From a virus (Duplodnaviria > Heunggongvirae > Uroviricota > Caudoviricetes), in IMG/VR virus record IMGVR_UViG_2645727843_000010: 19,413 nucleotides of DNA; one strand, given 5' to 3'. A model generated the notes under the pieces. It did not search any database, was not told the origin of the DNA, and saw only the letters and a list, made by a program, of their open reading frames with translations. Made by a program: the position numbers and the translations under genes. Below are positions 3,901 through 15,281 of this stretch, piece after piece. How positions within the stretch are numbered: position 1 is the first letter of the stretch; each line of letters begins with the position of its first letter.

Positions 3901-4172
3901 GTATTCGTATCGAAATTGGCGAACGTTATGTCGTTACCAGTGACAGCTTTCAGTTTATTCTCCACGAGAAAAAGAGAGCGGAAAGCGGTAAAAACGCCGG
4001 TCAGGAATGGCTGGCGGTGGTTGGTTATTATCCGAAATTAAGCCAGCTCGTTTCCGGCCTGATGCATCACGATATTCTGACCGGAAGCGCAAAGTCTTTT
4101 GCTGATTTAAACGCGCAGGTTGAGCAACTCAGCAAGCGTTGTTCAGAGGCTTTTGGCTCATATGGCCGTTAA
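3897..4172 (+). CDS. Hypothetical early protein, 91 aa, P2 orf83-like
   Basis: ATG at 3897 overlaps the upstream stop (ATGA); 3' end overlaps the A start by 11 nt. Confidence 0.6.
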   Translation: MSIRIEIGERYVVTSDSFQFILHEKKRAESGKNAGQEWLAVVGYYPKLSQLVSGLMHHDILTGSAKSFADLNAQVEQLSKRCSEAFGSYGR

Positions 4173-6447
4173 AGCCTCCGGGCGTTTTGTCCCTCCGTCA
4201 GCATTTGCCGCAGGCACCGGTAAGGCGTTTACCGGTGCTTATGCATGGAACGCGCCACGCGAGGCTGTCGGGCGCGAAAGACCCCTTACACGTGACGAGA
4301 TGCGTCAGGTGCAAGGTGTTTTATCCACGATTAACCGCCTGCCTTACTTTTTGCGCTCGCTGTTTACTTCACGCTATGACTACATCCGGCGCAATAAAAG
4401 CCCGGTGCACGGGTTTTATTTCCTCACATCCACTTTTCAGCGTCGTTTATGGCCGCGCATTGAGCGTGTGAATCAGCGCCATGAAATGAACACCGACGCG
4501 TCGTTACTGTTTCTGGCAGAGCGTGACCACTATGCGCGCCTGCCGGGAATGAATGACAAGGAGCTGAAAAAGTTTGCTGCCCGTATCTCATCGCAGCTTT
4601 TCATGATGTATGAGGAACTCAGCGATGCCTGGGTGGATGCGCATGGCGAAAAAGAATCGCTGTTTACGGATGAGGCGCAGGCTCACCTGTATGGTCATGT
4701 TGCTGGCGCTGCACGTGCTTTCAATATTTCCCCTCTCTACTGGAAAAAATACCGTAAAGGGCAGATGACCACGAGGCAGGCATATTCTGCCATTGCCCGT
4801 CTGTTTAACGATGAGTGGTGGACTCATCAGCTTAAAGGCCAGCGTATGCGCTGGCATGAGGCGTTACTGATAGCTGTCGGGGAAGTCAATAAAGACCGTT
4901 CTCCTTATGCCAGTAAACATGCCATTCGTGATGTGTGTGCACGCCGCCAGGCAAATCTGGAATTTCTTAAATCGTGTGACCTTGAAAACAGGGAAACCGG
5001 CGAGCGCATCGACCTTATCAGTAAGGTGATGGGAAGTATTTCTAATCCTGAAATTCGCCGGATGGAGCTGATGAACACCATTGCCGGTATTGAGCGTTAC
5101 GCCGCTGCAGAGGGTGATGTGGGGATGTTTATCACGCTGACCGCGCCGTCAAAGTATCACCCGACACGTCAGGTCGGAAAAGGCGAAAGTAAAACCGTGC
5201 AGCTTAATCACGGCTGGAACGATGAGGCATTTAATCCAAAGGATGCGCAGCGTTATCTCTGCCGTATCTGGAGCCTGATGCGCACGGCATTCAAGGATAA
5301 TGATTTACAGGTCTACGGTTTGCGTGTTGTTGAACCACACCACGACGGAACGCCGCACTGGCATATGATGCTTTTTTGTAATCCACGCCAGCGTAACCAG
5401 ATTATTGAAATCATGCGTCGCTATGCGCTCAAAGAGGATGGCGACGAAAGAGGAGCCGCGCGAAACCGTTTTCAGGCAAAACACCTTAATCGGGGCGGTG
5501 CTGCGGGGTATATCGCGAAATACATCTCAAAAAACATCGACGGCTATGCACTGGATGGTCAGCTCGATAACGATACCGGCAGACCTCTGAAAGATACTGC
5601 CGCGGCTGTTACTGCATGGGCGTCAACGTGGCGCATCCCGCAATTTAAAACGGTTGGTCTGCCGACAATGGGGGCTTACCGTGAACTACGCAAATTGCCT
5701 CGCGGCGTCAGCATTGCTGATGAGTTTGACGAACGCGTCGAGGCTGCACGCGCTGCCGCAGACAGTGGCGATTTTGCGTTGTATATCAGTGCGCAGGGTG
5801 GGGCAAATGTTCCGCGCGATTGCCAGACTGTCAGAGTCGCCCGTAGCCCGTCGGATGAAGTTAACGAGTACGAGGAAGAAGTCGAGAGAGTGGTCGGCAT
5901 TTACGCGCCACATCTCGGCGCGCGTCATATTCATATCACCAGAACGACGGACTGGCGCATTGTGCCGAAAGTTCCGGTCGTGGAGCCTTTGACTTTAAAA
6001 AGCGGCATCGCCGCGCCTCGGAGTCCTGTCAATAACTGTGGAAAGCTCACCGGTGGTGATACTTCGTTACCGGCTCCCACACCTTCTGAGCACGCCGCAG
6101 CAGTGCTTAATCTGGTTGATGACGGTGTTATTGAATGGAATGAACCGGAGGTCGTGAGGGCGCTCAGGGGTGCATTAAAACACGACCTGAGAACGCCAAA
6201 CCGTCAGCAAAGAAACGGAAGCCCGTTAAAACCACATGAAATTGCACCATCGGCCAGACTGACCCGGTCGGAAAGAATGCAAATTACCCGTATCCGCGTT
6301 GACCTTGCTCAGAACGGTATCAGGCCGCAGCGATGGGAGCTTGAGGCGCTGGCGCGTGGCGCGACCGTAAATTATGACGGGAAAAAATTCACGTATCCGG
6401 TCGCTGATGAGTGGCCGGGATTCTCAACAGTAATGGAGTGGAAATGA
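4162..6447 (+). CDS. A: P2 A protein, rolling-circle replication initiator / nickase, 761 aa
   Basis: The track ORF starts at a TTG at 4120; ATG at 4162 (MAVKASGRF...) gives 761 aa, the P2 A length as recalled. Near-identity to P2 A over the whole length from memory. Confidence 0.95.
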   Translation: MAVKASGRFVPPSAFAAGTGKAFTGAYAWNAPREAVGRERPLTRDEMRQVQGVLSTINRLPYFLRSLFTSRYDYIRRNKSPVHGFYFLTSTFQRRLWPRIERVNQRHEMNTDASLLFLAERDHYARLPGMNDKELKKFAARISSQLFMMYEELSDAWVDAHGEKESLFTDEAQAHLYGHVAGAARAFNISPLYWKKYRKGQMTTRQAYSAIARLFNDEWWTHQLKGQRMRWHEALLIAVGEVNKDRSPYASKHAIRDVCARRQANLEFLKSCDLENRETGERIDLISKVMGSISNPEIRRMELMNTIAGIERYAAAEGDVGMFITLTAPSKYHPTRQVGKGESKTVQLNHGWNDEAFNPKDAQRYLCRIWSLMRTAFKDNDLQVYGLRVVEPHHDGTPHWHMMLFCNPRQRNQIIEIMRRYALKEDGDERGAARNRFQAKHLNRGGAAGYIAKYISKNIDGYALDGQLDNDTGRPLKDTAAAVTAWASTWRIPQFKTVGLPTMGAYRELRKLPRGVSIADEFDERVEAARAAADSGDFALYISAQGGANVPRDCQTVRVARSPSDEVNEYEEEVERVVGIYAPHLGARHIHITRTTDWRIVPKVPVVEPLTLKSGIAAPRSPVNNCGKLTGGDTSLPAPTPSEHAAAVLNLVDDGVIEWNEPEVVRALRGALKHDLRTPNRQQRNGSPLKPHEIAPSARLTRSERMQITRIRVDLAQNGIRPQRWELEALARGATVNYDGKKFTYPVADEWPGFSTVMEWK

Positions 6448-6899
6448 TGGCAAAAATTCACGAGGTAAAGCTGCACGCAAAATATTTTGACCTTGTGCTG
6501 GAAGGAAAGAAACGCGCAGAGTTTCGGAAAAATGACCGTAATTATGAGCGCGGGGACACGTTGATTTTGCATGAATGGGTGCAGGGTGTGTATACGGGGC
6601 GAAAGGTTGAAGCCCGGATAACAGATGTTACTGACTTGTCAGACTGGCTGGAAGATTATGTCTTGCTAAGTATTGAGCTGCTTAATACAGGCGCATATGA
6701 GTTTGTGAACTGGAAAGAACTTAGTGAGCGTGGTCTGGTATTCAGAATTAATCATGAAATTATGCATCAGCTCGGCCTTGCTGTTGTGTATGAACCAGAG
6801 ACGGGGATGTCTGGCGGGGCAGTGGTTGGTGCGGATGGGATATGGAACTATTCAGATGAACAGGTGGAGCGTGCACAGCAAAACGGGTGGCTTGGATAA
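6444..6899 (+). CDS. ASCH/DUF3850-like domain protein, 151 aa, at the P2 orf91 position
   Basis: ATG at 6444 overlaps the A stop (ATGA). The N-terminal ~50 aa (KIHEVKLHAKYFDLVLEGKKRAEFRKNDRNYERGDTLILHEW) resembles the ASCH-like fold. Confidence 0.65.
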   Translation: MMAKIHEVKLHAKYFDLVLEGKKRAEFRKNDRNYERGDTLILHEWVQGVYTGRKVEARITDVTDLSDWLEDYVLLSIELLNTGAYEFVNWKELSERGLVFRINHEIMHQLGLAVVYEPETGMSGGAVVGADGIWNYSDEQVERAQQNGWLG

Positions 6900-7105
6900 T
6901 GCACAGAATACCAGGCGAGATACCGCAGCATAAAACTAAAAATATCAAGCTGATGGCCATTGTTCACCGTCTACAGCAGATTATGGTCAACGAAAATCTG
7001 ACGCCCGATGAGCTGGTCGGGTGTGCCGAAATAGTCCGGGATAATTACGTATGGCTTAACTATATCGGTCAGCCCAGCGCTGCACCGCCACCACGCAGAC
7101 GATAG
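6899..7105 (+). CDS. Hypothetical small protein, 68 aa
   Basis: ATG at 6899 overlaps the upstream stop (TAATG); the track start at 6887 is GTG. No recognisable domain. Lies at the backbone/cargo boundary. Confidence 0.35.
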   Translation: MHRIPGEIPQHKTKNIKLMAIVHRLQQIMVNENLTPDELVGCAEIVRDNYVWLNYIGQPSAAPPPRRR

Positions 7106-7294
7106 AGAACGCAGCCAGCTCAGGATTGGCGGGGGATAGAATAACGAGCATAGTGATGCGATTAGACAAACAGACTGACTGGTACACTTAGGATGGTTAT
7201 AGTGGTTTCTAAGTGCTTTAGCGATACATCTGGTGGACTGTTTTACCAACCTCAGAGTTAGCTGAATTTTTAACAAAATACCATTTTGATAGAT

Positions 7295-7322
7295 TTGCCT
7301 AATTTATTAATTAAACTATACT
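7295..7322 (+). promoter_or_regulatory. Candidate sigma70 promoter for the 78-aa / membrane-protein operon (-35 ttgcct, 16-bp spacer, -10 tatact)
   Basis: Hexamers read from sequence in the AT-rich intergenic region about 90 nt upstream of the 7414 start. Weak -35. Confidence 0.3.
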
Positions 7323-7413
7323 GGACTTATACACAGTGTTCTGTTAGTTGTTAGGTTGGTAAGATATTGTGAGGAGGTGATTACTATCTTGGCATCAATC
7401 AAGTGGAGGTTAA

Positions 7414-7650
7414 ATGATGAATATATTTGAACGTATTATAGGTAAAGCTGCTATTGAAAAGGAAAGAGAACTGGCGAGGAGGCTTGAAGCATCTGGAACA
7501 AACACTGTTGAGGTGGTAGGTCGAGGCGCGATTATCACGTCTAAAGAAGACTTGGCAAGCTCAGATACAGTAAAATTGATGAAAATTAAAGCAAGAAAAA
7601 TAGTTTCTGAGCAGGTAAAGCAAGAAGAAAAAATGGCTAAAGGGAATTAA
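7414..7650 (+). CDS. Hypothetical small charged protein, 78 aa, first gene of a two-gene cargo operon
   Basis: ATG at 7414 with GGAGG 5 nt upstream. K/E-rich and hydrophilic. Stop is 2 nt before the next ATG. Confidence 0.6.
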   Translation: MMNIFERIIGKAAIEKERELARRLEASGTNTVEVVGRGAIITSKEDLASSDTVKLMKIKARKIVSEQVKQEEKMAKGN

Positions 7651-7652
7651 TA

Positions 7653-8414
7653 ATGTTTGCTTTATTAATTATTCCATTACTTGTGAGTGGTTATATTGTA
7701 TTAACCACTCATCCTTATCATTTCTATAGATTACACCGTTATGATGGGCAGTTGTTATATATGAAGTCAGCCGCCTTTGGTCTGTGGTGTTTTATATGGA
7801 CATTGATTATAGCTTACTTAATAAAATGGATATGTCCGAGCTTCCATCCTGTCACGATGGTTCGGGAACAATTAGATCTCAAACTTAGTGACAATGGTAC
7901 TGAAAGAATCATAGGATGGATGATTTTACTTTCATGTGGAACGATATTTTTGGCTTGGATATGGAGTGTCGGTGCTAGATATTTGGTTATATATAGAGCT
8001 AAAATTATAAATTATATCCAAGGGGTAAAGGCTGCCAATATTGATTATGAGAATCTTGTCATGCTAAGGATGAGGCAAGAGCTTATTAATGATAATCCAA
8101 TGGATGAAATATTTTTTGATTCGTTAGTTGATAGACGTTCAATACTTATTACGTTGCAAAATAAAAAGACATATGTAGGAATTGTTAACGCATTAGGTGA
8201 GCCTAACGAGAAAGAAGGACCTAACCAGTATGTTTCAATCTATCCTATTATCTCTGGGTATAGAGATAAGGATTCATTGAAAGTAATCTTGGTGAATGAA
8301 TATAGAGAGCTTGAGGATGCTGATACTAGTATCATCTTTCCACTAAAAGAAATTTCGCAAGTTTCTTGGTTTGATATGGATATTCATAAAATAGTTGAAA
8401 ATAATAAGGTGTAG
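7653..8414 (+). CDS. Hypothetical membrane protein, 253 aa: three predicted N-terminal TM helices plus a ~145-aa soluble C-terminal domain
   Basis: ATG at 7653. Hydrophobic segments at about residues 1-19, 41-63 and 87-109. AT-rich codon usage unlike the phage backbone. No family recognised. Confidence 0.75.
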   Translation: MFALLIIPLLVSGYIVLTTHPYHFYRLHRYDGQLLYMKSAAFGLWCFIWTLIIAYLIKWICPSFHPVTMVREQLDLKLSDNGTERIIGWMILLSCGTIFLAWIWSVGARYLVIYRAKIINYIQGVKAANIDYENLVMLRMRQELINDNPMDEIFFDSLVDRRSILITLQNKKTYVGIVNALGEPNEKEGPNQYVSIYPIISGYRDKDSLKVILVNEYRELEDADTSIIFPLKEISQVSWFDMDIHKIVENNKV

Positions 8415-8417
8415 TAA

Positions 8418-8442
8418 ATGGTCACCTATAAAAGGTGACCAT
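8418..8442. terminator. Bidirectional hairpin between convergent cassettes (atggtcacct-ataaa-aggtgaccat)
   Basis: Perfect 10-bp stem with 5-nt loop, between the stop at 8414 (+) and the stop at 8448 (-); T/A-rich flanks on both sides. Confidence 0.6.
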
Positions 8443-8447
8443 AATGC

Positions 8448-10712
8448 TTATTTTTGACGAATCCTGATTTTTGGTTGTTCACGAACAACAATATCAGTTT
8501 CTTTCCAACCAAGATTATTTATTTCAACCTCGGCTTCGTTGTAGACTGTAGTAGAATTGGCAAGAGATCTTAACGTAATAGCCAATACAGCACGTTGAGG
8601 TGAAGATAGAGGCTCTTGCTCTGCTCGTCTCTGAACATCAAGTTTAAGTCTCCATTGCTCCCCATTTATACCTTGCGGAAATTGTTTTCTATAAACTTTG
8701 ACTGGAGACCATTTGAAGCCATTTTCTATCAGTACCTTTTCAAATAATTCACTCTTTTCTTTTATTTGTGGAATTTTTCCGCTATGTATCCATTTAGCGT
8801 TAACTGGATCATAAGTGTAAGTCCCGAATGACACATCCACATTAGAACGGCAATATTCAGATGGGTAGTCATAATCAAGCGGTGGAGAATAAACGAGTGT
8901 CATAATAATTTCACCTGTGAATTTTCCATCCTCAGTACGTAATGACTGTGGTATTACAAATGGCGTTCTACTGAATTCAATACCTTCTCGGGTATCTATT
9001 TCAAATAGAAATGTAATCTCATTTTTATTGCAACCAATAATATCATTTATATGATCGCTTGGGCGTCCAAATCCTTGATAATTAAACGCATAATGCTCCG
9101 TTTTGGCTGGTGAGTTTTTTAACGCAGAATGAATTAATAGTGCCTTGATACGTTCAGGCGATGGTGAAATAGAACCATTAACATCTAGTTCATGCCACAG
9201 TGATGCCGCTAAACTTGAGATTAACGGTGCTGATAAACTTGTGCCAATACTTTCGCAAAGAGCATTGTCCTCGCCAATAGCTATGATTCCGGTATGTTCA
9301 CAGTTTAATTTACTGTCACAATTACCTCCAAAGTGATTTATCTCTGGTTTGGGTATAAAGGCTGGGCCGGGACCTCTTCTAGAAAAAGATGAAGGTTCAA
9401 ATCTTTTGACCACAGAGTCAGACGATTCTAAATGGGCAACTGAGCCAACAGTTAATGAACGAACAGAATCTGCGGGGGCTGATATTCTGTCATGCCCACC
9501 TAATTCTTGAGGAGGCCAGGTTCGTTGAGGATCATAAATGTAGTTGCCGGATGCTACGACGAAAAGACAATCATGCTCATCATGAAGTGCATTTAAAAAA
9601 TGCCCCAATTCAGAGAAGCTGTCTTCAGAACATGGGGATTGACAACCTAATGACAGATTCCATACACGTACTTCTGGATAGGTGGTCACAGCCTCTCGGA
9701 TAGCTTTCATTAATTGTGGCAATTTGAGCGTACCATCTTTGGGAAAGGCTGCAACATCAACAATTTCAGCTTGGCATTGAGGAAAACCAGCATAGTTATT
9801 CAACCATCTTCCATTAATTGCTAAACTTGCAACCATGTTCCCATGAGAATAGTCGTGTTCTCCTTTTACTAAATCTAAACTATCCCAAATCCATGGCCTA
9901 AGTATGTTGTTATTGGGATCGACTCCGCTATCTATAATTCCGAGTAGTGGATAATGTTTATCCTCTTGAGGTAAGGGAAAATCATCTAGGTCTAGAGTTT
10001 CAGCAGGAATATATTGCGATACTGTATGAGTAAGACCAAATGTTGGCATAGGTTCTAATTTTCGTATGCCAATAAAACTTGCCAGTTGGGCGATGTTATC
10101 ATTCCCTTTTACTTCATATATACTCAAATCTGAACTGATATCATACTTTTTGGGTTTTTGTATTCCTAGTTCATCTGCAAATTCCATTAATTCTTTGTCG
10201 ATACTGCGGTTAGTTGTTCTATCTTTATGGTCAAAGAGTTTCAGAAGAAAACTATCTGATTTATTTTTATCTATAACATCATGGTTAAGACTAAAAGGTT
10301 CGATCTTTTCAATTACAGCAATATGTACTGTTCCATTATGAGAATTAGTGCTATTTTCAATTTTTTTGCGAAGTTGTGCTAACCCTTTTTCAGTAACACT
10401 TATAAGTAATTCTCCAAAATTATCACTGCCTATTACGGGACATGTATTATCACCTAATAGGCTTGATGGGCGATGTGACTTAGCAAGAGCTTTTTCATGA
10501 AGAGTAACTCTAGCCACCGCCGGTATATTGGGCCATTTTTTAAATGAGCTCTGGAAAAAATTTTTAACGTCATCGACTTCTTGTTTGAGTCTATTTTTTA
10601 GACTAGTTGTTACTGTTCGGATAGGTTGTTTCTTTCCGAAATTATATGTTTTTTCAGTAAAATCTTGAGGTGTCGCCTCAATTATTTTTATTGGTCTTTC
10701 TTTGTTACTCAT
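8448..10712 (-). CDS. Subtilisin-like serine protease (peptidase S8), 754 aa; IetS-like
   Basis: Catalytic motifs in canonical order: Asp (GIIDSGVD), His (YSHGNMVASLA), oxyanion Asn (VVASGN), Ser (GTSLSAPLISS). ATG overlaps the upstream ATPase stop (ATGA). Confidence 0.9.
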   Translation of the reverse strand: MSNKERPIKIIEATPQDFTEKTYNFGKKQPIRTVTTSLKNRLKQEVDDVKNFFQSSFKKWPNIPAVARVTLHEKALAKSHRPSSLLGDNTCPVIGSDNFGELLISVTEKGLAQLRKKIENSTNSHNGTVHIAVIEKIEPFSLNHDVIDKNKSDSFLLKLFDHKDRTTNRSIDKELMEFADELGIQKPKKYDISSDLSIYEVKGNDNIAQLASFIGIRKLEPMPTFGLTHTVSQYIPAETLDLDDFPLPQEDKHYPLLGIIDSGVDPNNNILRPWIWDSLDLVKGEHDYSHGNMVASLAINGRWLNNYAGFPQCQAEIVDVAAFPKDGTLKLPQLMKAIREAVTTYPEVRVWNLSLGCQSPCSEDSFSELGHFLNALHDEHDCLFVVASGNYIYDPQRTWPPQELGGHDRISAPADSVRSLTVGSVAHLESSDSVVKRFEPSSFSRRGPGPAFIPKPEINHFGGNCDSKLNCEHTGIIAIGEDNALCESIGTSLSAPLISSLAASLWHELDVNGSISPSPERIKALLIHSALKNSPAKTEHYAFNYQGFGRPSDHINDIIGCNKNEITFLFEIDTREGIEFSRTPFVIPQSLRTEDGKFTGEIIMTLVYSPPLDYDYPSEYCRSNVDVSFGTYTYDPVNAKWIHSGKIPQIKEKSELFEKVLIENGFKWSPVKVYRKQFPQGINGEQWRLKLDVQRRAEQEPLSSPQRAVLAITLRSLANSTTVYNEAEVEINNLGWKETDIVVREQPKIRIRQK

Positions 10713-11872
10713 AATATCTCTCTATAATTCTTAGTTAGCCTTGACACTTTAGCATTTGAAAGCCCTAGTATTTTTGCTATCTTTCGTATTGTAAATCTTT
10801 TGGGATTGTATTCTCTGAGAGTGGTCACAATCTTTATAAGTAAATTATCTTCTTCATCAAATGTAACTCCCTTCGCTTCTAAGATAGCCTCGACTAAAAA
10901 TCGGGTATCGATTTGTTTATTATTGTAAACCAGAGCATGTCGCTCAGATCTTAAGCAGCATTGTTCTATAAATGAGCAGTTTAGCCCTGATGATATTTCC
11001 GCAAGGTCATCAACAAAATCGTCATATGTAGCTTTTATGTTTGAATATTGTTCAAATAGTTGTTTTCTGACTTCAAAATCAGGCAATCCAATAGATATTC
11101 TATACTCAAAGCGCCTCCAAACTGCGCTATCTAGAAGATTTTCATGATTACTTGCAGCAATCAATATTGTTTCTTCAGGTAGATTGTCAATATTTTGCAA
11201 TAAAGAAACCACCACCCTCTTCAGTTCACCTAACTCATGCTGATCATCTCTAGCCTTTGCTAGAGAATCTAGTTCATCTAGAAATAAAACACATGGTGCT
11301 TTACTTGCATACTCAAATAGCTGCCTGATATTTTTAGAAGTAGACCCCAGATATGATGAGACTAAGGAGTCACATCTTGCAGTAAGAAGCGGTAAATTTA
11401 GACAGGATGCAATATATTTTGATGTCAAGGTTTTACCACAACCTGGTGGCCCATATAAAATCATAGAGGATGTCACGCCAAGACCGGCATCCTTTAATTC
11501 TTTAGCTCGTTCAGTGAAAGTCAAAAATTCTTTAATTTTTTTCAGAGTGCTATCTTTCAACAATGGGAGTTGAATTTCAGAAGACGGTTGAGTTACGTCT
11601 GCTAAATCAAATTTAGTTTCTTTATCTACAGGTAATGTATCAAGACGTTCAAAAATAGGTGATGTACTGCGTGATACTTTCTGCAAGTTAAACGTGTTTT
11701 TATCTTGAATACTACCTCTAATGGCTGAAGCAAGCTCAGGCAGCCCCATAGAATCATAGGAACGCGCGAGTTTCGAAGCCTGCCGAACAAAAGCAACTTT
11801 ATCCCCTTTGAGTCCAAGACTGATAAGCTGCGAAAGTATCTCGTTTGTGGTCATTTGTGATACAAACCTCAT
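10709..11872 (-). CDS. Classical AAA+ ATPase, 387 aa; IetA-like
   Basis: Walker A (GPPGCGKT), Walker B (VLFLDELD), sensor-1 Asn (IAASN), arginine fingers (AVWRRF). No strong Shine-Dalgarno seen, so the start is less certain (alternative Met 6 codons in). Confidence 0.88.
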   Translation of the reverse strand: MRFVSQMTTNEILSQLISLGLKGDKVAFVRQASKLARSYDSMGLPELASAIRGSIQDKNTFNLQKVSRSTSPIFERLDTLPVDKETKFDLADVTQPSSEIQLPLLKDSTLKKIKEFLTFTERAKELKDAGLGVTSSMILYGPPGCGKTLTSKYIASCLNLPLLTARCDSLVSSYLGSTSKNIRQLFEYASKAPCVLFLDELDSLAKARDDQHELGELKRVVVSLLQNIDNLPEETILIAASNHENLLDSAVWRRFEYRISIGLPDFEVRKQLFEQYSNIKATYDDFVDDLAEISSGLNCSFIEQCCLRSERHALVYNNKQIDTRFLVEAILEAKGVTFDEEDNLLIKIVTTLREYNPKRFTIRKIAKILGLSNAKVSRLTKNYREIL

Positions 11873-12113
11873 TAATCTGTTGTCTAAATGGCTTATAGGT
11901 GAGACAAATTTCTATTTTAATGTAGTTTATATGTATTTTGGTGAAACGAACACTATGTTTTACATAAATCTTTCAGGTTTGGAGTTCTTGGAGGGCATAG
12001 AGTTGCATCAATTTGCATTCTAATTAGACTTTTTTATTGCTATCGTATTCTACATGTGACTAGGTCTGCCCTTCCTGATGCGTTTGCATTAAAACCTCCC
12101 CATGAAGCGGGCG

Positions 12114-12132
12114 GGCGAGGCGGGGAAAGCAC
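12114..12132. other. Putative cos cohesive-end sequence ggcgaggcggggaaagcac
   Basis: Matches the P2 19-nt cohesive end as I recall it. Sits in a GC-rich block just downstream of Q, where P2 has cos. Confidence 0.55.
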
Positions 12133-12301: not shown

Positions 12302-13336
12302 TCAGCCGTTGTCAGTGTCCAGTGAGTAGTTTTTAAATCGGATGACCTCCTGACCGAGCCAGCCGTTTATCTCGCGGATCCTGTCCTGTAACGGGATAAG
12401 CTCATTGCGGACAAAGACCTTTGCCACTTTCTCAATATCACCCAGCGACCCGACGTTCTCCGGCTTGCCCCCCATCAACTGAAAGGGGATGCGATGCGCG
12501 TCCAGCAGGTCAGCGGCGCTGGCTTTTTTGATATTAAAAAAATCGTCCTTCGTTGCCACTTCACTGAGCGGGATAATTTTAATGCCGTCGGCTTTCCCCT
12601 GTGGGGCATAGAGAAACAGATTTTTAAAGTTATTGCGGCCTTTCGACTTAACCATGTTTTCGCGAAGCATTTCGATATCGTTGCGATCCTGCACGGCATC
12701 GGTGACGTACATGATGTATCCGGCATGAGCGCCGTTTTCGTAATACTTGCGGCGGAACAGCGTGGCCGACTCATTCAGCCAGGCAGAGTTAAGGGCGCTG
12801 AGATATTCCGGCAGGCCGTACAGCTCCTGATTAATATCCGGCTCCAGCAGGTGAAACACGGAGCCGGGCGCGAAAGGTGTCGGCTCATGGAAGGACGGCA
12901 CCCACCAGTAAACATCCTCTTCCACGCCACGGCGGGTATATTTTGCCGGTGAGGTTTCCAGTCTGATGACCTTACCGGTGGTGCTGTAACGCTTTTCCAG
13001 AAACGCATTACCGAACACCAGAAAATCCAGCACAAAGCGGCTGAAATCCTGCTGAGAAAGCCACGGGTGCGGGATAAACGTTGAAGCCAGAATATTGCGT
13101 TTGACGTAAATCGGTGAGCTGTGATGCACGGCAGCACGCAGGCTTTTTGCCAGACCGGTAAAGCTGACCGGTGGCTCATACCATCTGCCGTTACTGATGC
13201 ACTCGACATAATCCAGAATGTCACGGCGGTCGAGTACCGGCACCGGCTCACCAAAGGTGAATGCCTCCATTTTCGGGGCGCTGGCGGTCATTTTTTTTGC
13301 CGCAGGTTGCGGTGTTTTCCCTTTTTTCTTGCTCAT
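12302..13336 (-). CDS. Q: Portal vertex protein, 344 aa
   Basis: ATG (cat at 13334-13336). Length equals P2 Q as recalled; strong recognition. Start overlaps the P stop. Confidence 0.95.
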   Translation of the reverse strand: MSKKKGKTPQPAAKKMTASAPKMEAFTFGEPVPVLDRRDILDYVECISNGRWYEPPVSFTGLAKSLRAAVHHSSPIYVKRNILASTFIPHPWLSQQDFSRFVLDFLVFGNAFLEKRYSTTGKVIRLETSPAKYTRRGVEEDVYWWVPSFHEPTPFAPGSVFHLLEPDINQELYGLPEYLSALNSAWLNESATLFRRKYYENGAHAGYIMYVTDAVQDRNDIEMLRENMVKSKGRNNFKNLFLYAPQGKADGIKIIPLSEVATKDDFFNIKKASAADLLDAHRIPFQLMGGKPENVGSLGDIEKVAKVFVRNELIPLQDRIREINGWLGQEVIRFKNYSLDTDNG

Positions 13337-15108
13337 CAGTAAAACTCCAGAATGGTGGATGTCAGCGGGGTGCTGATACCGGCGGTGAGTGGCTCATTTA
13401 ACAGGGCGTGCATGGTCGCCCAGGCGAGGTCGGCGTGGCTGGCTTCCTCGCTGCGGCTGGCCTCATAGGTGGCACTGCGTCCGCTGCTGGTCATGGTCTT
13501 GCGGATAGCCATAAACGAGCTGGTGATGTCGGTGGCGCTGACGTCGTATTCCAGACAGCCACGGCGGATGACGTCTTTTGCCTTGAGCACCATTGCGGTT
13601 TTCATTTCCGGCGTGTAGCGGATGTCGCGCGCGGCGGGATAGAACGAGCGCACGAGCTGGAACACGCCGACACCGAGGCCGGTGGCATCAATACCGATGT
13701 ATTCGACGTTGTATTTTTCGGTGAGTTTGCGGATGGATTCCGCCTGAGTGGCAAAGTCCATGCCTTTCCACTGGTGACGCTCAAGTATTCTGAATTTGCC
13801 ACCGGCCACCACCGGCGGTGCCAGCACCACGCATCCGGCACTGTCGCCACGGTGTGACGGGTCGTAACCAATCCAGACCGGGCGGGAGCCGAACGGATTC
13901 GCGGCAAACGGCGCATAGTCTTCCCATTCTTCCAGCGTGTCGACCATGCAGCGTTGCAGCTCCTCGAACGGGAATACCGACGCCTTGTCGTCAACAAATT
14001 CACACATGAACAGGTTTTTAAAATCGTCGGCGCTGTTTTCACGTTTGAGCTGCTCAATGTCGAACAGCGTGCAGCCACCTTTCAGGGCGTCCTCAATGGT
14101 GACAATCTGCCGCCACTGGCCGTCCGCACAGAGAAGCCCACCGGCAAGGGCGTTATGACTGACGTCGATTTCCACGCGTTCGGCGGCGCTGGCGCGTCCC
14201 CGGTTGAACAGTTCACCTGACCAGAACGGGTAGGCGTCGTGCGCCAGCGTGGACGGGGTGGAGAAATAGGTCGAACGCAGGTGACTCTGTGAGGCCATAC
14301 CTGATGCCACCTTACGCAGTACCTGAAAATTCGGGATCCAGAAAATCTCGTCGACGTACAGGTCGCCGTTATGGCTCTGTGCGGTGTTGGAGTTGGTGCC
14401 GAGAAAAATCAGTTTTGCGCCGTTATTGCCCAGGACAATCGGGTCACCGGTCAGGTCAACGTCAACCAGCCGGGCAAAGGCGATGATGTATTCACGGAAC
14501 ACATACGCCTGCGTTTTACTGGCCGACAGAAAAATCTGGTTATGGCCGGTTTTCAGGGCGCGCAGCAGCGCCTCGCGGGAAAAATAAAACGTTGCGCCAA
14601 TCTGGCGGGATTTCAGGATATCGCGGATGCGGTGCTCAAGCCCGGCGCGATACCAGTGCAACTGATAGTCGAAAGACTGCTCAAAGAAAATCTGCTCCAG
14701 CTTTTCGATGGCCTCGTCACTGAAAAAATTCTTTTTCGGTTTGCGACGCCCGCCTTTGTTGCGGTTAGCGACGTTCGGATTAAGGTCTGCCTCGTTGCCG
14801 GTCTGACTGTAGCGGTTGACCCGTGCCAGTCGTTCAATCTGGCGTCCCAGCAGGTCAATTTCCTTGAAGTCACCGCCGGTTTTCTGCGGTTTGATGATGA
14901 GCTGGGTCAGCCGCGCTTCCAGACTCATTTCGACACGGCTGATGGGGGCAACGCTGTCCCAGCCGTCGCGCTGTTTCCAGCTCTGCACCGTCGGGCGTTT
15001 CATCTGCAACATGGCGGCAATCTGCGGCACGGAAAACCCCTGCCAGTACAGCAGCGCCGCCTGACGACGCGGGTCGTGCAAAAGAGTGGTGTCTGTGGTG
15101 ATGGTCAT
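13336..15108 (-). CDS. P: Terminase large subunit (ATPase/nuclease), 590 aa from the internal ATG
   Basis: The track ORF extends 10 codons upstream; ATG at 15106-15108 (MTITTDTTLLHDPRRQAALLYWQG...) gives the P2 P length as recalled. Confidence 0.92.
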   Translation of the reverse strand: MTITTDTTLLHDPRRQAALLYWQGFSVPQIAAMLQMKRPTVQSWKQRDGWDSVAPISRVEMSLEARLTQLIIKPQKTGGDFKEIDLLGRQIERLARVNRYSQTGNEADLNPNVANRNKGGRRKPKKNFFSDEAIEKLEQIFFEQSFDYQLHWYRAGLEHRIRDILKSRQIGATFYFSREALLRALKTGHNQIFLSASKTQAYVFREYIIAFARLVDVDLTGDPIVLGNNGAKLIFLGTNSNTAQSHNGDLYVDEIFWIPNFQVLRKVASGMASQSHLRSTYFSTPSTLAHDAYPFWSGELFNRGRASAAERVEIDVSHNALAGGLLCADGQWRQIVTIEDALKGGCTLFDIEQLKRENSADDFKNLFMCEFVDDKASVFPFEELQRCMVDTLEEWEDYAPFAANPFGSRPVWIGYDPSHRGDSAGCVVLAPPVVAGGKFRILERHQWKGMDFATQAESIRKLTEKYNVEYIGIDATGLGVGVFQLVRSFYPAARDIRYTPEMKTAMVLKAKDVIRRGCLEYDVSATDITSSFMAIRKTMTSSGRSATYEASRSEEASHADLAWATMHALLNEPLTAGISTPLTSTILEFY

Positions 15109-15281
15109 GAATACCTCGCCGTGATGAATACACGGCAAGGCTACTGAGTCGCGTCCCGCGATTCGCTAAGGTGCTGTTGTGTCAGTGATAAGCCATCCGG
15201 GACTGATGGCGGAGGATGCGCATCGTCGGGAAACTGATGCCGACATGTGACTCCTCTAATCACTATTCAGGACTCCTGACA
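15109..15281. promoter_or_regulatory. Divergent P / O intergenic region; expected site of Ogr-dependent late promoters
   Basis: Position only. I scanned for a TGT-N12-ACA dyad and did not find a clean match. Confidence 0.3.

What the first reader, a model, noticed from the sequence alone, without database searches (positions are those of the whole stretch)
8448..11872. AAA+ ATPase plus S8 subtilase pair resembling the IetA/IetS defence system
A classical AAA+ ATPase and a subtilisin-like protease with an intact Asp/His/Ser triad are translationally coupled (4-nt ATGA overlap), ATPase first, on the minus strand. This architecture matches the Iet system described among anti-phage systems (ATPase IetA, S8 peptidase IetS). 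Its mechanism is, to my knowledge, not resolved, and its presence as prophage hotspot cargo supports a role in inter-phage competition.
Basis: partly seen in the sequence, partly recalled or inferred. Interest (0 to 1): 0.7.

Follow-up and report, generated by a model that had tools for sequence, protein, structure and literature searches.

The report
IetAS anti-phage pair in P2 prophage
The two genes are a real, intact copy of the already described IetA/IetS (ATPase plus subtilisin-type protease) anti-phage toxin-antitoxin system, carried as cargo in the known defence hotspot of a P2-like E. coli prophage; this makes it an ordinary new member of a known family whose mechanism is still unsolved.

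Summary
On the minus strand, a 381/387-aa classical AAA+ ATPase (10709-11854/11872) is followed by a 754-aa S8 subtilase (8448-10712), joined by an ATGA overlap. The catalytic residues are intact and invariant across homologues.

Both proteins match the PADLOC IetA and IetS models over their full length (438 and 908 bits). The pair lies in a low-GC block between gpA and the cos site/portal gene gpQ of a P2-like prophage. That is the defence hotspot in which Rousset et al. 2022 already listed ietAS.

This copy is a divergent enterobacterial sub-clade:
- IetS is about 43% identical to proteins NCBI names IteS.
- Both proteins score below the NCBIfam equivalog cut-offs, so RefSeq names them generically.
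- IetA is 33.5% identical to the common P2-hotspot variant.
- I found no experimental test of this sub-clade.

The mechanism is inferred from the literature and predicted structures. IetA is an unfoldase-type AAA+ protein with a probable C-terminal HTH. It is thought to restrain a cytoplasmic pro-subtilase-like IetS until infection, after which proteolysis aborts the infection.

In passing: a convergent two-gene cassette (78 aa plus a 253-aa membrane protein) has diverged in lockstep with this IetAS sub-clade. It travels with it in both P2-like and lambdoid prophages, but it also occurs alone elsewhere.

Novelty is low and interest is modest.

The parts
10709..11872 (-). ietA: classical-clade AAA+ ATPase, the antitoxin-like component. 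The longest ORF is 387 aa; the probable start is the ATG at 11854 (381 aa). Predicted layout: N-terminal three-helix bundle, a disordered linker, the conserved motif LPVDxE(T/S)(K/R)(F/L)xLAD, the AAA+ core, and a probable C-terminal HTH.
   Evidence: PADLOC IetA 438 bits, full length. Pfam AAA 110 bits. NCBIfam IteA 387 bits, cut-off 510. Motifs invariant in 40 homologues. AF2 model pLDDT 83.6. Foldseek top hits are p97 D2, Vps4, proteasomal Rpt/PAN and FtsH. The C-terminal tail gives many sub-threshold HTH hits. Start codon.
8448..10712 (-). ietS: cytoplasmic S8 subtilase, the toxin/effector, 754 aa. Catalytic residues D261, H290, N390, S492. Predicted layout: N-terminal domain (about 1-140), a beta-alpha-beta-beta-alpha-beta module (154-221) resembling a subtilase prodomain, the S8 core (255-560), and a C-terminal beta-sandwich (565-740).
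10709..10712 (-). ATGA overlap of the ietA stop codon and the ietS start codon, consistent with translational coupling.
   Evidence: Sequence read directly.
8418..8442 (.). A 10-bp-stem hairpin (ATGGTCACCT...AGGTGACCAT) in the 33-nt gap between the convergent ietS and 253-aa genes. It is a candidate bidirectional terminator.
   Evidence: Terminator-like hit; sequence.
7653..8414 (+). A 253-aa membrane protein of unknown function, convergent with ietS. It has three hydrophobic segments (1-21, 39-64, 85-108) and a conserved soluble C-terminal domain. It is part of a separate two-gene cassette that travels with this IetAS sub-clade.
   Evidence: No Pfam, PADLOC or NCBIfam hit. phrog_3630 290 bits, unknown function. 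Identical sequence is listed as protein 1 of 'system 57' in Rousset Table S5B. Hydropathy. Linkage and independence.
7414..7650 (+). A 78-aa soluble protein of unknown function, the upstream partner of the 253-aa membrane protein.
   Evidence: phrog_37504 179 bits. Listed in Rousset Table S5B system 57. Orthologues are 54-90% identical next to the membrane protein in other loci.
7300..12040 (.). Low-GC cargo block (36.3% GC, against 47.4% to the left and 54.2% to the right). It holds both cassettes.
   Evidence: Composition.
12114..12132 (+). GGCGAGGCGGGGAAAGCAC, an exact match to the 19-nt cohesive-end (cos) sequence of phage P2. The P2 sequence is recalled from my own knowledge. It marks the right edge of the hotspot.
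   Evidence: Exact pattern match. Rousset et al. describe the hotspot as adjacent to cos.
4120..6447 (+). gpA-type replication endonuclease, the left flank of the P2 hotspot.
   Evidence: ORF. RefSeq annotates the 99%-identical gene as 'replication endonuclease'. Pfam Phage_GPA in the Rahnella homologue.
12302..13336 (-). gpQ portal protein, the right flank of the P2 hotspot.
   Evidence: RefSeq annotates the 99%-identical gene as 'phage portal protein'.

Best explanation
The locus is a complete, apparently functional IetAS (Gao_Iet) cassette. IetAS is a two-gene, toxin-antitoxin-like anti-phage system. Here it is carried as accessory cargo in the gpA-gpQ (cos-proximal) defence hotspot of a P2-like E. 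coli prophage.

Shown here:
- Family membership of both proteins.
- Intact catalytic motifs.
- Operon architecture.
- Hotspot location.
- Foreign base composition.

Taken from the literature on other family members:
- IetS is the toxic protease and IetA neutralises it.
- The protease active site is needed for defence.
- A Bacillus homologue acts by abortive infection and becomes toxic when one phage protein is expressed.

Inferred for this copy (about 50% confidence for the whole chain):
1. IetA assembles as a Vps4/Cdc48-type hexameric unfoldase, with intact pore loops, arginine fingers and Walker motifs.
2. Using ATP, IetA keeps the cytoplasmic subtilase IetS latent. It does this either by holding or remodelling IetS, or by keeping a prodomain-like module engaged.
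3. IetA's probable C-terminal HTH represses the operon, as typical antitoxins do.
4. Infection removes this restraint. Either a phage protein acts on IetA, or IetA is lost after host shut-off.
5. IetS then cleaves cellular and/or phage proteins, and the cell stops growing before phage progeny are completed.
6. This protects the lysogen population, and with it the prophage, from competing phages.
For: Family membership and motifs:
- Full-length, very high-scoring matches to IetA and IetS profiles (438 and 908 bits; the best NCBIfam hits are IteA and IteS).
- D261/H290/N390/S492 and the Walker A/B, sensor-1 and arginine-finger residues are invariant; the pore-loop aromatic position varies Y/F/L.

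Architecture and location:
- ietA is followed by ietS with an ATGA overlap.
- The same gene order holds in 38 of 39 viral loci with upstream sequence.
- The pair lies in a 36% GC block between gpA and cos/gpQ.
- The same pair at 99.7% identity or more is present in only 12 of 5,426 complete E. coli genomes, always on the chromosome. This is an accessory-gene distribution.
- ietAS is listed among the P2-hotspot systems by Rousset et al..

Predicted structures:
- IetA resembles protein-unfoldase AAA+ modules: p97 D2, Vps4, Rpt/PAN and FtsH.
- IetS has no signal peptide.
- The IetA tail gives HTH hits.

Literature:
- Toxin-antitoxin roles, the failure to clone ietA mutants, and the requirement for protease activity (PMC13069673).
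- Abortive infection and a phage-protein trigger in a B. cereus homologue (bioRxiv 10.1101/2022.08.27.505566).
- Anti-phage tests of an E. coli ietAS (bioRxiv 10.1101/2022.08.21.504612).
Against: - No experiment exists for this sub-clade. Its IetS is only about 43% identical to proteins NCBI names IteS, and both proteins fall below the NCBIfam equivalog cut-offs.
- Its IetA is 33.5% identical to the common P2-hotspot variant. The ECOR52 cloning primers of Wu et al. do not match the window.
- Pairwise similarity of IetS to the founding pTiC58 protease is marginal (E 1e-3).
- The prodomain-like module has no sequence match to Inhibitor_I9 or any other Pfam family. That step therefore rests on a predicted fold topology only.
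- The HTH hits of this copy are all below the Pfam gathering thresholds.
- How an AAA+ ATPase neutralises a subtilase is not known for any member of the family.
- The ECOR52 system gave only limited protection on its own.
Confidence: 0.85

Rival explanations
1. The cassette serves mainly as an addiction (post-segregational killing) module that stabilises the prophage in the lysogen, as the founding IetAS does for the Ti plasmid pTiC58. On this view any anti-phage effect is secondary.
For: - IetAS was first described as a plasmid-stabilising toxin-antitoxin system (Yamamoto et al. 2009, as cited in PMC13069673).
- The window's IetA is clearly homologous to pTiC58 IetA from residue 1 (28% identity, E 2e-35).
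- In strain E302 the surrounding prophage is decayed, with an IS21 insertion in gpA and many frameshifts, while ietAS stays intact.
Against: - The gpA-gpQ site is a documented reservoir of anti-phage systems.
- Homologues protect against phage and behave as abortive-infection systems.
- The two roles are not mutually exclusive.
Confidence: 0.2
2. The functional unit is the whole four-gene low-GC block. On this view the convergent 78-aa and 253-aa membrane proteins are accessory components or an effector module coupled to IetAS in this sub-clade, comparable to the helicase acquired by ietHAS.
For: - All loci holding an IetS 58% or more identical also hold the pair, in the same convergent arrangement.
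- The four proteins diverge in lockstep. Identities for IetA/IetS/membrane protein/small protein are 84/90/88/89, 65/78/76/76, 55/60/56/54, 54/58/54/55 and 56/60/55/58%. Phage backbone identity does not track these values.
- The block occurs in P2-like prophages of six genera and also in a lambdoid prophage, between the replication genes and the Q/lysis genes.
- In complete E. coli genomes the two cassettes co-occur 12 of 12 times.
Against: - The pair occurs without IetAS in many prophages at 43-48% identity. Some of these are in P2 hotspots directly beside gpQ, others lie next to integrases.
- 36 more distant IetAS loci in viral contigs, and three genomic ones, lack the pair.
- The pair is transcribed convergently, as a separate unit with a hairpin between the two.
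- Canonical two-gene IetAS is sufficient for defence in published tests.
- Co-transfer of tightly abutting cassettes can explain the shared history without any functional link.
Confidence: 0.15
3. IetA and IetS form a processive two-component ATP-dependent protease, as ClpX-ClpP or PAN-proteasome do. It would unfold and destroy specific phage proteins directly, without killing the cell.
For: - IetA has intact pore loops.
- Its closest structural relatives are the unfoldases of proteolytic machines: Rpt/PAN, FtsH and Cdc48.
Against: - Subtilases are open, non-compartmentalised proteases, and none is known to dock on an AAA+ ring (general knowledge).
- IetS is toxic when IetA is inactivated.
- The Bacillus homologue shows culture collapse at high multiplicity of infection and trigger-dependent toxicity.
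Confidence: 0.08
4. The pair is a housekeeping protease/chaperone pair of the host and has nothing to do with phage.
For: The only support is the generic RefSeq names, 'AAA family ATPase' and 'S8 family peptidase'.
Against: - It is present in 12 of 5,426 complete E. coli genomes.
- It lies inside a prophage hotspot with foreign GC content.
- Its best profile matches are the defence families.
- FtsH, Clp and proteasome ATPase models score far below their cut-offs.
Confidence: 0.01

Closest known systems
IetAS / Gao_Iet anti-phage system (Gao et al. 2020; PADLOC 'ietAS'; NCBIfam NF042959 IteA and NF042956 IteS)
   Same: - A two-gene operon with an AAA+ ATPase first and an S8 peptidase second.
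- Full-length matches to the family profiles.
- The same conserved motifs.
- A cytoplasmic protease.
- Located on a mobile element.
   Different: - This is a divergent enterobacterial sub-clade. IetS is about 43% identical to proteins NCBI names IteS.
- Both proteins score below the NCBIfam equivalog cut-offs.
- I found no experimental test of this sub-clade.
- It is always accompanied by a convergent two-gene cassette that canonical loci lack.
ietAS variant listed as system 7 of the E. coli P2 gpA-gpQ hotspot (Rousset et al. 2022, Table S5B; 400 occurrences)
   Same: - The same hotspot in the same phage family.
- The same domain pair (Peptidase_S8 | AAA).
- IetA also ends in an HTH; in that variant the tail passes the Pfam HTH_50 threshold.
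   Different: - IetA is only 33.5% identical over 370 residues.
- The window's variant is much rarer, at 12 of 5,426 complete genomes.
Founding IetA/IetS toxin-antitoxin pair of Agrobacterium Ti plasmid pTiC58 (NC_003065: 97873-98859 and 98863-101373; Yamamoto et al. 2009)
   Same: - The same gene order and tight spacing.
- IetA is homologous from the N-terminus through the AAA+ module (28% identity, E 2e-35).
- Both pairs hit the PADLOC Iet models.
   Different: - pTiC58 IetA (328 aa) lacks the C-terminal HTH extension.
- pTiC58 IetS (836 aa) is barely alignable pairwise (E 1e-3, around the catalytic Ser only). It matches other IetS sub-models best.
- It sits on a plasmid and its described role is plasmid stability.
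ietHAS (Liu-DS4; Liu et al. 2026, PMC13069673)
   Same: An IetAS core plus additional linked gene(s). It sets the precedent that IetAS can recruit accessory components.
   Different: ietHAS has a co-directional SNF2-family helicase that is required for defence. The window has no helicase. Its linked genes are a convergent small protein plus a membrane protein, and these also exist on their own.

Membership tests
IetAS (Gao_Iet) defence system | An AAA+ ATPase that matches the IetA family profile over its full length | tested here: met
   PADLOC PDLC02196: E 9.1e-132, 438 bits, residues 9-382 on model positions 3-370 of 374. phrog_3757: 429 bits.
IetAS (Gao_Iet) defence system | An S8 peptidase that matches the IetS family profile over its full length | tested here: met
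   PADLOC PDLC02197: E 1.1e-273, 908 bits, residues 1-747 on model positions 1-747 of 749. phrog_3964: 813 bits.
IetAS (Gao_Iet) defence system | The two genes are adjacent on one strand, with ietA upstream of ietS | tested here: met
   ATGA overlap at 10709-10712. The same order holds in 38 of 39 viral loci with upstream sequence and in all genomic loci examined.
IetAS (Gao_Iet) defence system | Intact catalytic residues: the protease Asp/His/Ser triad, and the ATPase Walker A/B motifs and arginine fingers | tested here: met
   IetS D261, H290, N390, S492. IetA K147, D199/E200, N242, R253/R254 (387-aa numbering). All are invariant across 40-42 homologues.
IetAS (Gao_Iet) defence system | Scores above the NCBIfam equivalog cut-offs (IteA 510 bits, IteS 900 bits) | tested here: not met
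   387 and 782 bits. The alignments are full length and these are the best hits. The shortfall marks a divergent sub-clade, not a different family, and explains the generic RefSeq product names.
IetAS (Gao_Iet) defence system | Homology to the founding pTiC58 IetA and IetS | tested here: inconclusive
   IetA is clearly homologous (28% identity, E 2e-35). IetS shows only marginal pairwise similarity (E 1e-3), but both IetS proteins hit PADLOC IetS models PDLC02197 and PDLC02198.
IetAS (Gao_Iet) defence system | Protection against phage that depends on the protease active site | not testable with these tools
   Reported for other members only (PMC13069673 citing Gao 2020; bioRxiv 10.1101/2022.08.21.504612). 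I found no test of this sub-clade.
IetAS (Gao_Iet) defence system | Toxin-antitoxin behaviour: IetS is toxic unless active IetA is present | not testable with these tools
   Known from pTiC58 and ietHAS. The original papers by Yamamoto 2009 and Gao 2020 are not held in the library.
P2-like phage gpA-gpQ defence hotspot cargo (Rousset et al. 2022) | Located between the replication gene gpA and the portal gene gpQ, next to cos | tested here: met
   gpA 4120-6447, cargo 7300-12040, cos 12114-12132, gpQ 12302-13336.
P2-like phage gpA-gpQ defence hotspot cargo (Rousset et al. 2022) | Variable accessory content with a composition unlike the phage backbone | tested here: met
   36.3% GC against 47.4% and 54.2% in the flanks. 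Other P2-like phages carry only the two-gene cassette, or other cargo, at this site.
ietHAS (IetAS with an SNF2 helicase) | An additional SNF2/DrmD-like helicase gene in the operon | tested here: not met
   No such ORF lies between 7100 and 12300. The neighbouring proteins have no helicase, Pfam or PADLOC hit.
Housekeeping AAA+ proteases (FtsH, Lon, ClpXP, proteasome/PAN) | An AAA+ module partnered with an M41, S16, S14 or T1 compartmentalised peptidase, conserved in the core genome | tested here: not met
   The partner is an S8 subtilase. FtsH, PAN and ClpX models score 23-103 bits against cut-offs of 359-1008. The pair is present in 12 of 5,426 E. coli genomes.

The most novel reading that the evidence does not exclude
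In this enterobacterial sub-clade the unit of selection may be a four-gene module: IetA and IetS plus the convergent 78-aa protein and 253-aa membrane protein. The membrane pair could be a second effector or a regulator that is functionally coupled to the IetS protease, for example released or activated by cleavage. That would parallel the way proteases arm pore-forming proteins in other bacterial immune systems.

The evidence that leaves this open:
- The four proteins diverge in lockstep.
- The block occurs in both P2-like and lambdoid prophages.
- The two cassettes co-occur 12 of 12 times in complete E. coli genomes.

The evidence that makes it unlikely:
- Each cassette also exists alone in more distant lineages.
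Probability: 0.15. Interest if true: 0.6.

Novelty: new member of a known kind. Interest (0 to 1): 0.3.

Why it matters
IetAS is widespread. PADLOC detected it in 1,979 E. coli genomes in the data set of Wu et al. and in 35 of 79 porcine ETEC strains. Its mechanism was still described as unknown in 2026.

This copy adds no new kind of system. It does provide three useful things:
- A native E. coli, phage-borne, compact sub-clade with a high-confidence predicted structure for both proteins.
- Concrete hypotheses to test: an unfoldase-type IetA with an HTH tail, a prodomain-like module in IetS, and conserved candidate interface motifs.
- A natural experiment on whether an adjacent membrane-protein cassette cooperates with IetAS.

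It also shows that the current NCBIfam cut-offs leave this sub-clade unnamed in RefSeq.

Tried and rejected
- **Primary papers not held.** I could not read Gao et al. 2020 (PMC7985843) or Yamamoto et al. 2009 (PMC2704731). Their findings are cited second-hand through PMC13069673.
- **No phage-record match.** Megablast of the pair against 50,697 GenBank phage records found nothing. The element is known only as a prophage or IMG/VR contig.
- **No solved structure.** A PDB sequence search gave no IetA or IetS structure, only generic subtilases (E about 5e-4) and generic AAA+ proteins.
- **No sequence support for a prodomain.** I looked for an Inhibitor_I9 prodomain or any other Pfam domain in the IetS N- and C-terminal regions across 42 homologues. 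None was found.
- **Not the tested ECOR52 system.** The cloning primers of Wu et al. do not match the window.
- **Pair as an obligate IetAS accessory.** I tested this idea and rejected it as a general rule, because the pair occurs alone in many prophages and most IetAS loci lack it.
- **A corrected reading.** I first read the Pectobacterium and Enterobacter loci as non-P2 contexts. They contain gpA, portal and integrase fragments and are decayed P2-like prophages. The truly different context is the lambdoid prophage L030.
- **Promoter scan uninformative.** It found 19 sites against 16.9 expected by chance.
- **Housekeeping reading rejected.** See the rival explanations.

Full report
**What is at the coordinates**

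The window is an IMG/VR contig, UViG_2695420394_000006, 19,413 bp (locus L029). It has the gene order of a P2-like prophage: integrase, a Cox-type early region, the gpA replication endonuclease (4120-6447, +), then a gap, then the portal gene gpQ (12302-13336, -), the terminase gene gpP (13336-15138, -), and the scaffold and capsid genes.

The junction reads ATATTATGAGTAAC. The upstream stop TGA and the downstream start ATG therefore share the four bases ATGA at 10709-10712.

One refinement concerns the ATPase start. It probably begins at the second ATG, 11854, giving 381 aa. That start is used by RefSeq and by an identical database protein seen on 690 contigs (P0121). All aligned homologues begin there too, and it corresponds to position 1 of the PADLOC profile.

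**What the proteins are**

The upstream protein is a classical-clade AAA+ ATPase.
- Pfam PF00004 scores 110 bits.
- Its closest solved relatives by sequence are VCP/Cdc48 D2, AFG2 and Rix7 (E about 1e-48 to 1e-50).
- Its closest relatives by predicted fold are p97 D2, Vps4, the proteasomal Rpt/PAN ATPases and FtsH (model pLDDT 83.6).
- In 381-aa numbering, Walker A (GPPGCGKT, K141), Walker B (D193/E194), sensor-1 N236 and the WRRF arginines (R247/R248) are invariant in 40 homologues that go down to 39% identity.
- The pore-loop-1 motif S-S-(Y/F/L)-L-G and a highly conserved pore-loop-2 region (ARDDQHELGELKRVV) are also present.

These are the hallmarks of a substrate-threading unfoldase rather than a switch-type ATPase.

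The predicted structure adds further parts:
- an N-terminal three-helix bundle;
- a disordered linker (residues 53-70);
- a conserved motif LPVDxE(T/S)(K/R)(F/L)xLAD;
- three C-terminal helices (335-380).

The sequence of those C-terminal helices (FTIRKIAKILGLSNAKVSRL) gives many weak hits to helix-turn-helix families. HTH_28 is the best at E 7e-4, and all are below the gathering thresholds.

The downstream protein is an S8 subtilase.
- Pfam PF00082 scores 85 bits.
- D261, H290 and S492, plus the oxyanion asparagine N390, are invariant in 42 homologues.
- It has no hydrophobic segment or signal peptide, so it should be cytoplasmic.

Its AlphaFold model is confident (pLDDT 89.5, pTM 0.91). It shows four parts:
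- an N-terminal alpha/beta domain (about 1-140);
- a beta-alpha-beta-beta-alpha-beta module (154-221) immediately before the catalytic domain;
- the subtilase core (255-560);
- a C-terminal beta-sandwich (565-740).

- KP-43, a subtilase with a C-terminal beta-domain.
- ProN-Tk-SP.
- Unprocessed pro-subtilisin E, with 318 residues aligned. That is more than the roughly 275 residues I recall for mature subtilisin.
- CspB.

This suggests, but does not prove, that IetS carries a prodomain-like module. No Pfam family, including Inhibitor_I9, matches the N- or C-terminal regions in any of the 42 homologues.

**Is it IetAS?**

- Against PADLOC-DB, the ATPase matches IetA model PDLC02196 at E 9e-132 over essentially the whole model.
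- The protease matches IetS model PDLC02197 at E 1e-273, residues 1-747 on 1-747 of 749 positions.
- Against NCBIfam, the best hits are 'anti-phage ATPase IteA' (387 bits) and 'S8 family anti-phage peptidase IteS' (782 bits). Both align over the full length, but both fall below the strict equivalog cut-offs of 510 and 900 bits.

The NCBIfam shortfall explains why RefSeq calls the 99.7-99.9% identical genes in 12 E. coli genomes merely 'AAA family ATPase' and 'S8 family peptidase'.

Proteins that NCBI does name IteS, from Microbulbifer and Dongshaea, are about 43% identical to the window's IetS.

I also fetched the founding pair from the Ti plasmid pTiC58, at NC_003065 97873-98859 and 98863-101373.
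- The two IetA proteins align from residue 1 through the AAA+ module (28% identity, E 2e-35). The plasmid protein lacks the C-terminal HTH extension.
- The two IetS proteins are barely alignable pairwise (E 1e-3, around the catalytic serine). Both do hit PADLOC IetS models.

In 43 IMG/VR contigs that encode an IetS relative, an IetA gene lies immediately upstream on the same strand in 38 of the 39 loci that have upstream sequence.

The membership verdict is clear. This is a member of the IetAS family, in a divergent enterobacterial sub-clade.

**Context**

The pair sits in a 4.7-kb block of 36% GC, between flanks of 47% and 54% GC. To the right, at 12114-12132, is GGCGAGGCGGGGAAAGCAC. From my own knowledge this is the 19-nt cohesive end of P2.

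The gpA-gpQ, cos-proximal interval is exactly the P2 'hotspot of antiviral systems' of Rousset et al. 2022 (PMC9122126). Their Table S5B lists 'Peptidase_S8 | AAA ... ietAS (Gao et al, 2020)' as system 7, with 400 occurrences.

That common variant is a different sub-clade. Its IetA is 33.5% identical to the window's. The window's variant is rare, at 12 of 5,426 complete E. coli genomes, all chromosomal. It is absent from deposited phage genomes. The ietAS tested by Wu et al., from ECOR52, is not this one either, because their primers do not match the window.

**How it most likely works**

Nothing here is measured for this copy. The model combines the literature on other members with the anatomy described above.

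The published facts I could read are these:
- IetAS was first found as a plasmid-stabilising toxin-antitoxin pair, with the protease as toxin and the ATPase as antitoxin.
- ietA mutants could not be constructed.
- The protease active site is required for defence.
[quoted passage not shown] 2026, PMC13069673).
- A B. cereus ietAS behaves as an abortive-infection system, and it becomes toxic when the SPbeta protein YosG is expressed (bioRxiv 10.1101/2022.08.27.505566).
- An E. coli ietAS gave limited protection alone but synergised with Zorya II (bioRxiv 10.1101/2022.08.21.504612).

From these facts and the anatomy I commit to the following model:
1. IetA forms a Vps4/Cdc48-like hexamer.
2. The hexamer uses ATP to keep cytoplasmic IetS latent, by holding or remodelling it or by keeping its prodomain-like module engaged.
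3. IetA probably also represses the operon through its HTH tail.
4. Infection disables or titrates IetA, either through a phage protein or through loss of a labile antitoxin after host shut-off.
5. Freed IetS degrades essential proteins.
6. The infected lysogen arrests before the competing phage matures.

I put about 0.95 on the identity of the locus as IetAS hotspot cargo, and about 0.5 on this mechanistic chain.

The rivals are as follows:
- A mainly prophage-stabilising addiction role (0.2; this is not exclusive of defence).
- A four-gene composite system (0.15).
- A processive AAA+-fed protease that destroys phage proteins without killing the cell (0.08).
- A housekeeping pair (0.01).

**The neighbouring cassette**

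Two genes run convergently with ietS and are separated from it by a 33-nt gap holding a 10-bp-stem hairpin (8418-8442). One encodes a 78-aa soluble protein (7414-7650). The other encodes a 253-aa protein with three N-terminal hydrophobic segments (7653-8414).

Neither has a Pfam, PADLOC or NCBIfam hit. Both match PHROGs of unknown function. Rousset et al. list the identical pair separately as 'system 57', with 75 occurrences.

In this sub-clade the pair is tightly linked to IetAS.
- The two cassettes co-occur in 12 of 12 complete E. coli genomes.
- Every locus with an IetS 58% or more identical also has the pair in the same arrangement. These loci come from Enterobacter, Citrobacter, Scandinavium, Rahnella and Pectobacterium.
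- The four proteins diverge in lockstep, as shown below.

| Locus | IetA | IetS | Membrane protein | Small protein |
|---|---|---|---|---|
| L013 | 84% | 90% | 88% | 89% |
| L005 | 65% | 78% | 76% | 76% |
| L007 | 55% | 60% | 56% | 54% |
| L009 | 54% | 58% | 54% | 55% |
| L030 | 56% | 60% | 55% | 58% |

- Phage backbone identity does not track these values.
- Most of these loci are P2-like hotspots or decayed P2-like prophages.
- One locus, L030, is a lambdoid prophage. There the block lies between the replication genes and the antiterminator-Q and lysis genes.

Against a functional link:
- Homologues of the pair at 43-48% identity occur without any IetAS. Some lie in P2 hotspots directly beside gpQ, and others lie next to integrases at prophage ends.
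- 36 more distant viral IetAS loci and three genomic ones lack the pair.

The simplest reading is two autonomous cassettes that abut so tightly that they have been exchanged together. Functional cooperation is not excluded, and I give it as the novel case.

**Verdict**

The system, its family profiles and its occurrence in the P2 hotspot are all published. The novelty is therefore that of a new, divergent and untested member of a known kind.

Interest is modest, at 0.3. The open question is how an AAA+ ATPase and a subtilase produce immunity, and it belongs to the family as a whole rather than to this locus. This compact, native E. coli copy, its confident models and its travelling companion cassette do offer concrete experiments.

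Noticed in passing
window 7414-8414 (+); also L005, L007, L009, L013-L015, L030 and the solo copies L016-L019, L033-L053: A convergent two-gene cassette of unknown function (a 78-aa protein plus a 253-aa protein with three hydrophobic segments) is always linked to this IetAS sub-clade. It diverges in lockstep with IetAS (54-90% identity) in P2-like prophages and in one lambdoid prophage. More distant homologues (43-48%) occur alone, either beside gpQ or next to integrases. Rousset 2022 lists it as untested 'system 57'.
   Followed up: yes
window 12114-12132: An exact copy of the 19-nt P2 cohesive-end sequence GGCGAGGCGGGGAAAGCAC, about 75 bp right of the low-GC cargo block. The P2 sequence is recalled from my own knowledge. 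It places the cargo directly next to cos, as in the published hotspot.
   Followed up: partly
window 10709-11872; NCBIfam NF042959 and NF042956: The NCBIfam equivalog cut-offs (510 and 900 bits) exclude this sub-clade (387 and 782 bits). RefSeq therefore labels all 12 E. coli copies only 'AAA family ATPase' and 'S8 family peptidase'. NCBI also spells the names IteA/IteS rather than IetA/IetS.
   Followed up: yes
window 11854 vs 11872: The longest ORF starts at 11872. Homologues, RefSeq and the profile alignment all point to the ATG at 11854, which has a GAGG 12 nt upstream. IetA is then 381 aa.
   Followed up: yes
IetA residues about 75-90 (381-aa numbering) and IetS residues 75-100: Two short motifs outside the catalytic domains are strongly conserved. 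One is LPVDxE(T/S)(K/R)(F/L)xLAD in the IetA linker, with D77, L84 and D86 invariant. The other is ALAKSHRP...P92...G100 in a lower-confidence loop of the IetS N-terminal domain. They are candidate interface, pseudosubstrate or processing sites.
   Followed up: no
window 6411-6899 (+) and 6887-7105 (+): Directly after gpA lie a 162-aa ASCH/DUF3850 plus DUF7415 protein and a 72-aa protein (phrog_11386). They have backbone-like GC content. Within the fetched loci they were detected only in the E. coli copies (94-100% identical). They appear to be P2-lineage accessory genes rather than part of the low-GC cargo.
   Followed up: partly
L001 (E. coli E302, NZ_AP022362.1 1799937-1827361): In this strain the same prophage is decaying. 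An IS21-family ISEc12 element splits gpA, and the terminase, head-completion, tail and baseplate genes are frameshifted. All four cargo genes remain intact.
   Followed up: no
L030 (IMGVR_UViG_2737471838_000003) 6753-11339: The four-gene block also sits in a lambdoid prophage. It lies between the DnaC-like replication gene with YdaT and repressor genes on one side, and the DUF1367, antiterminator-Q-like (DUF1133), holin and lysozyme genes on the other. The block has therefore moved between unrelated phage backbones as a unit.
   Followed up: partly
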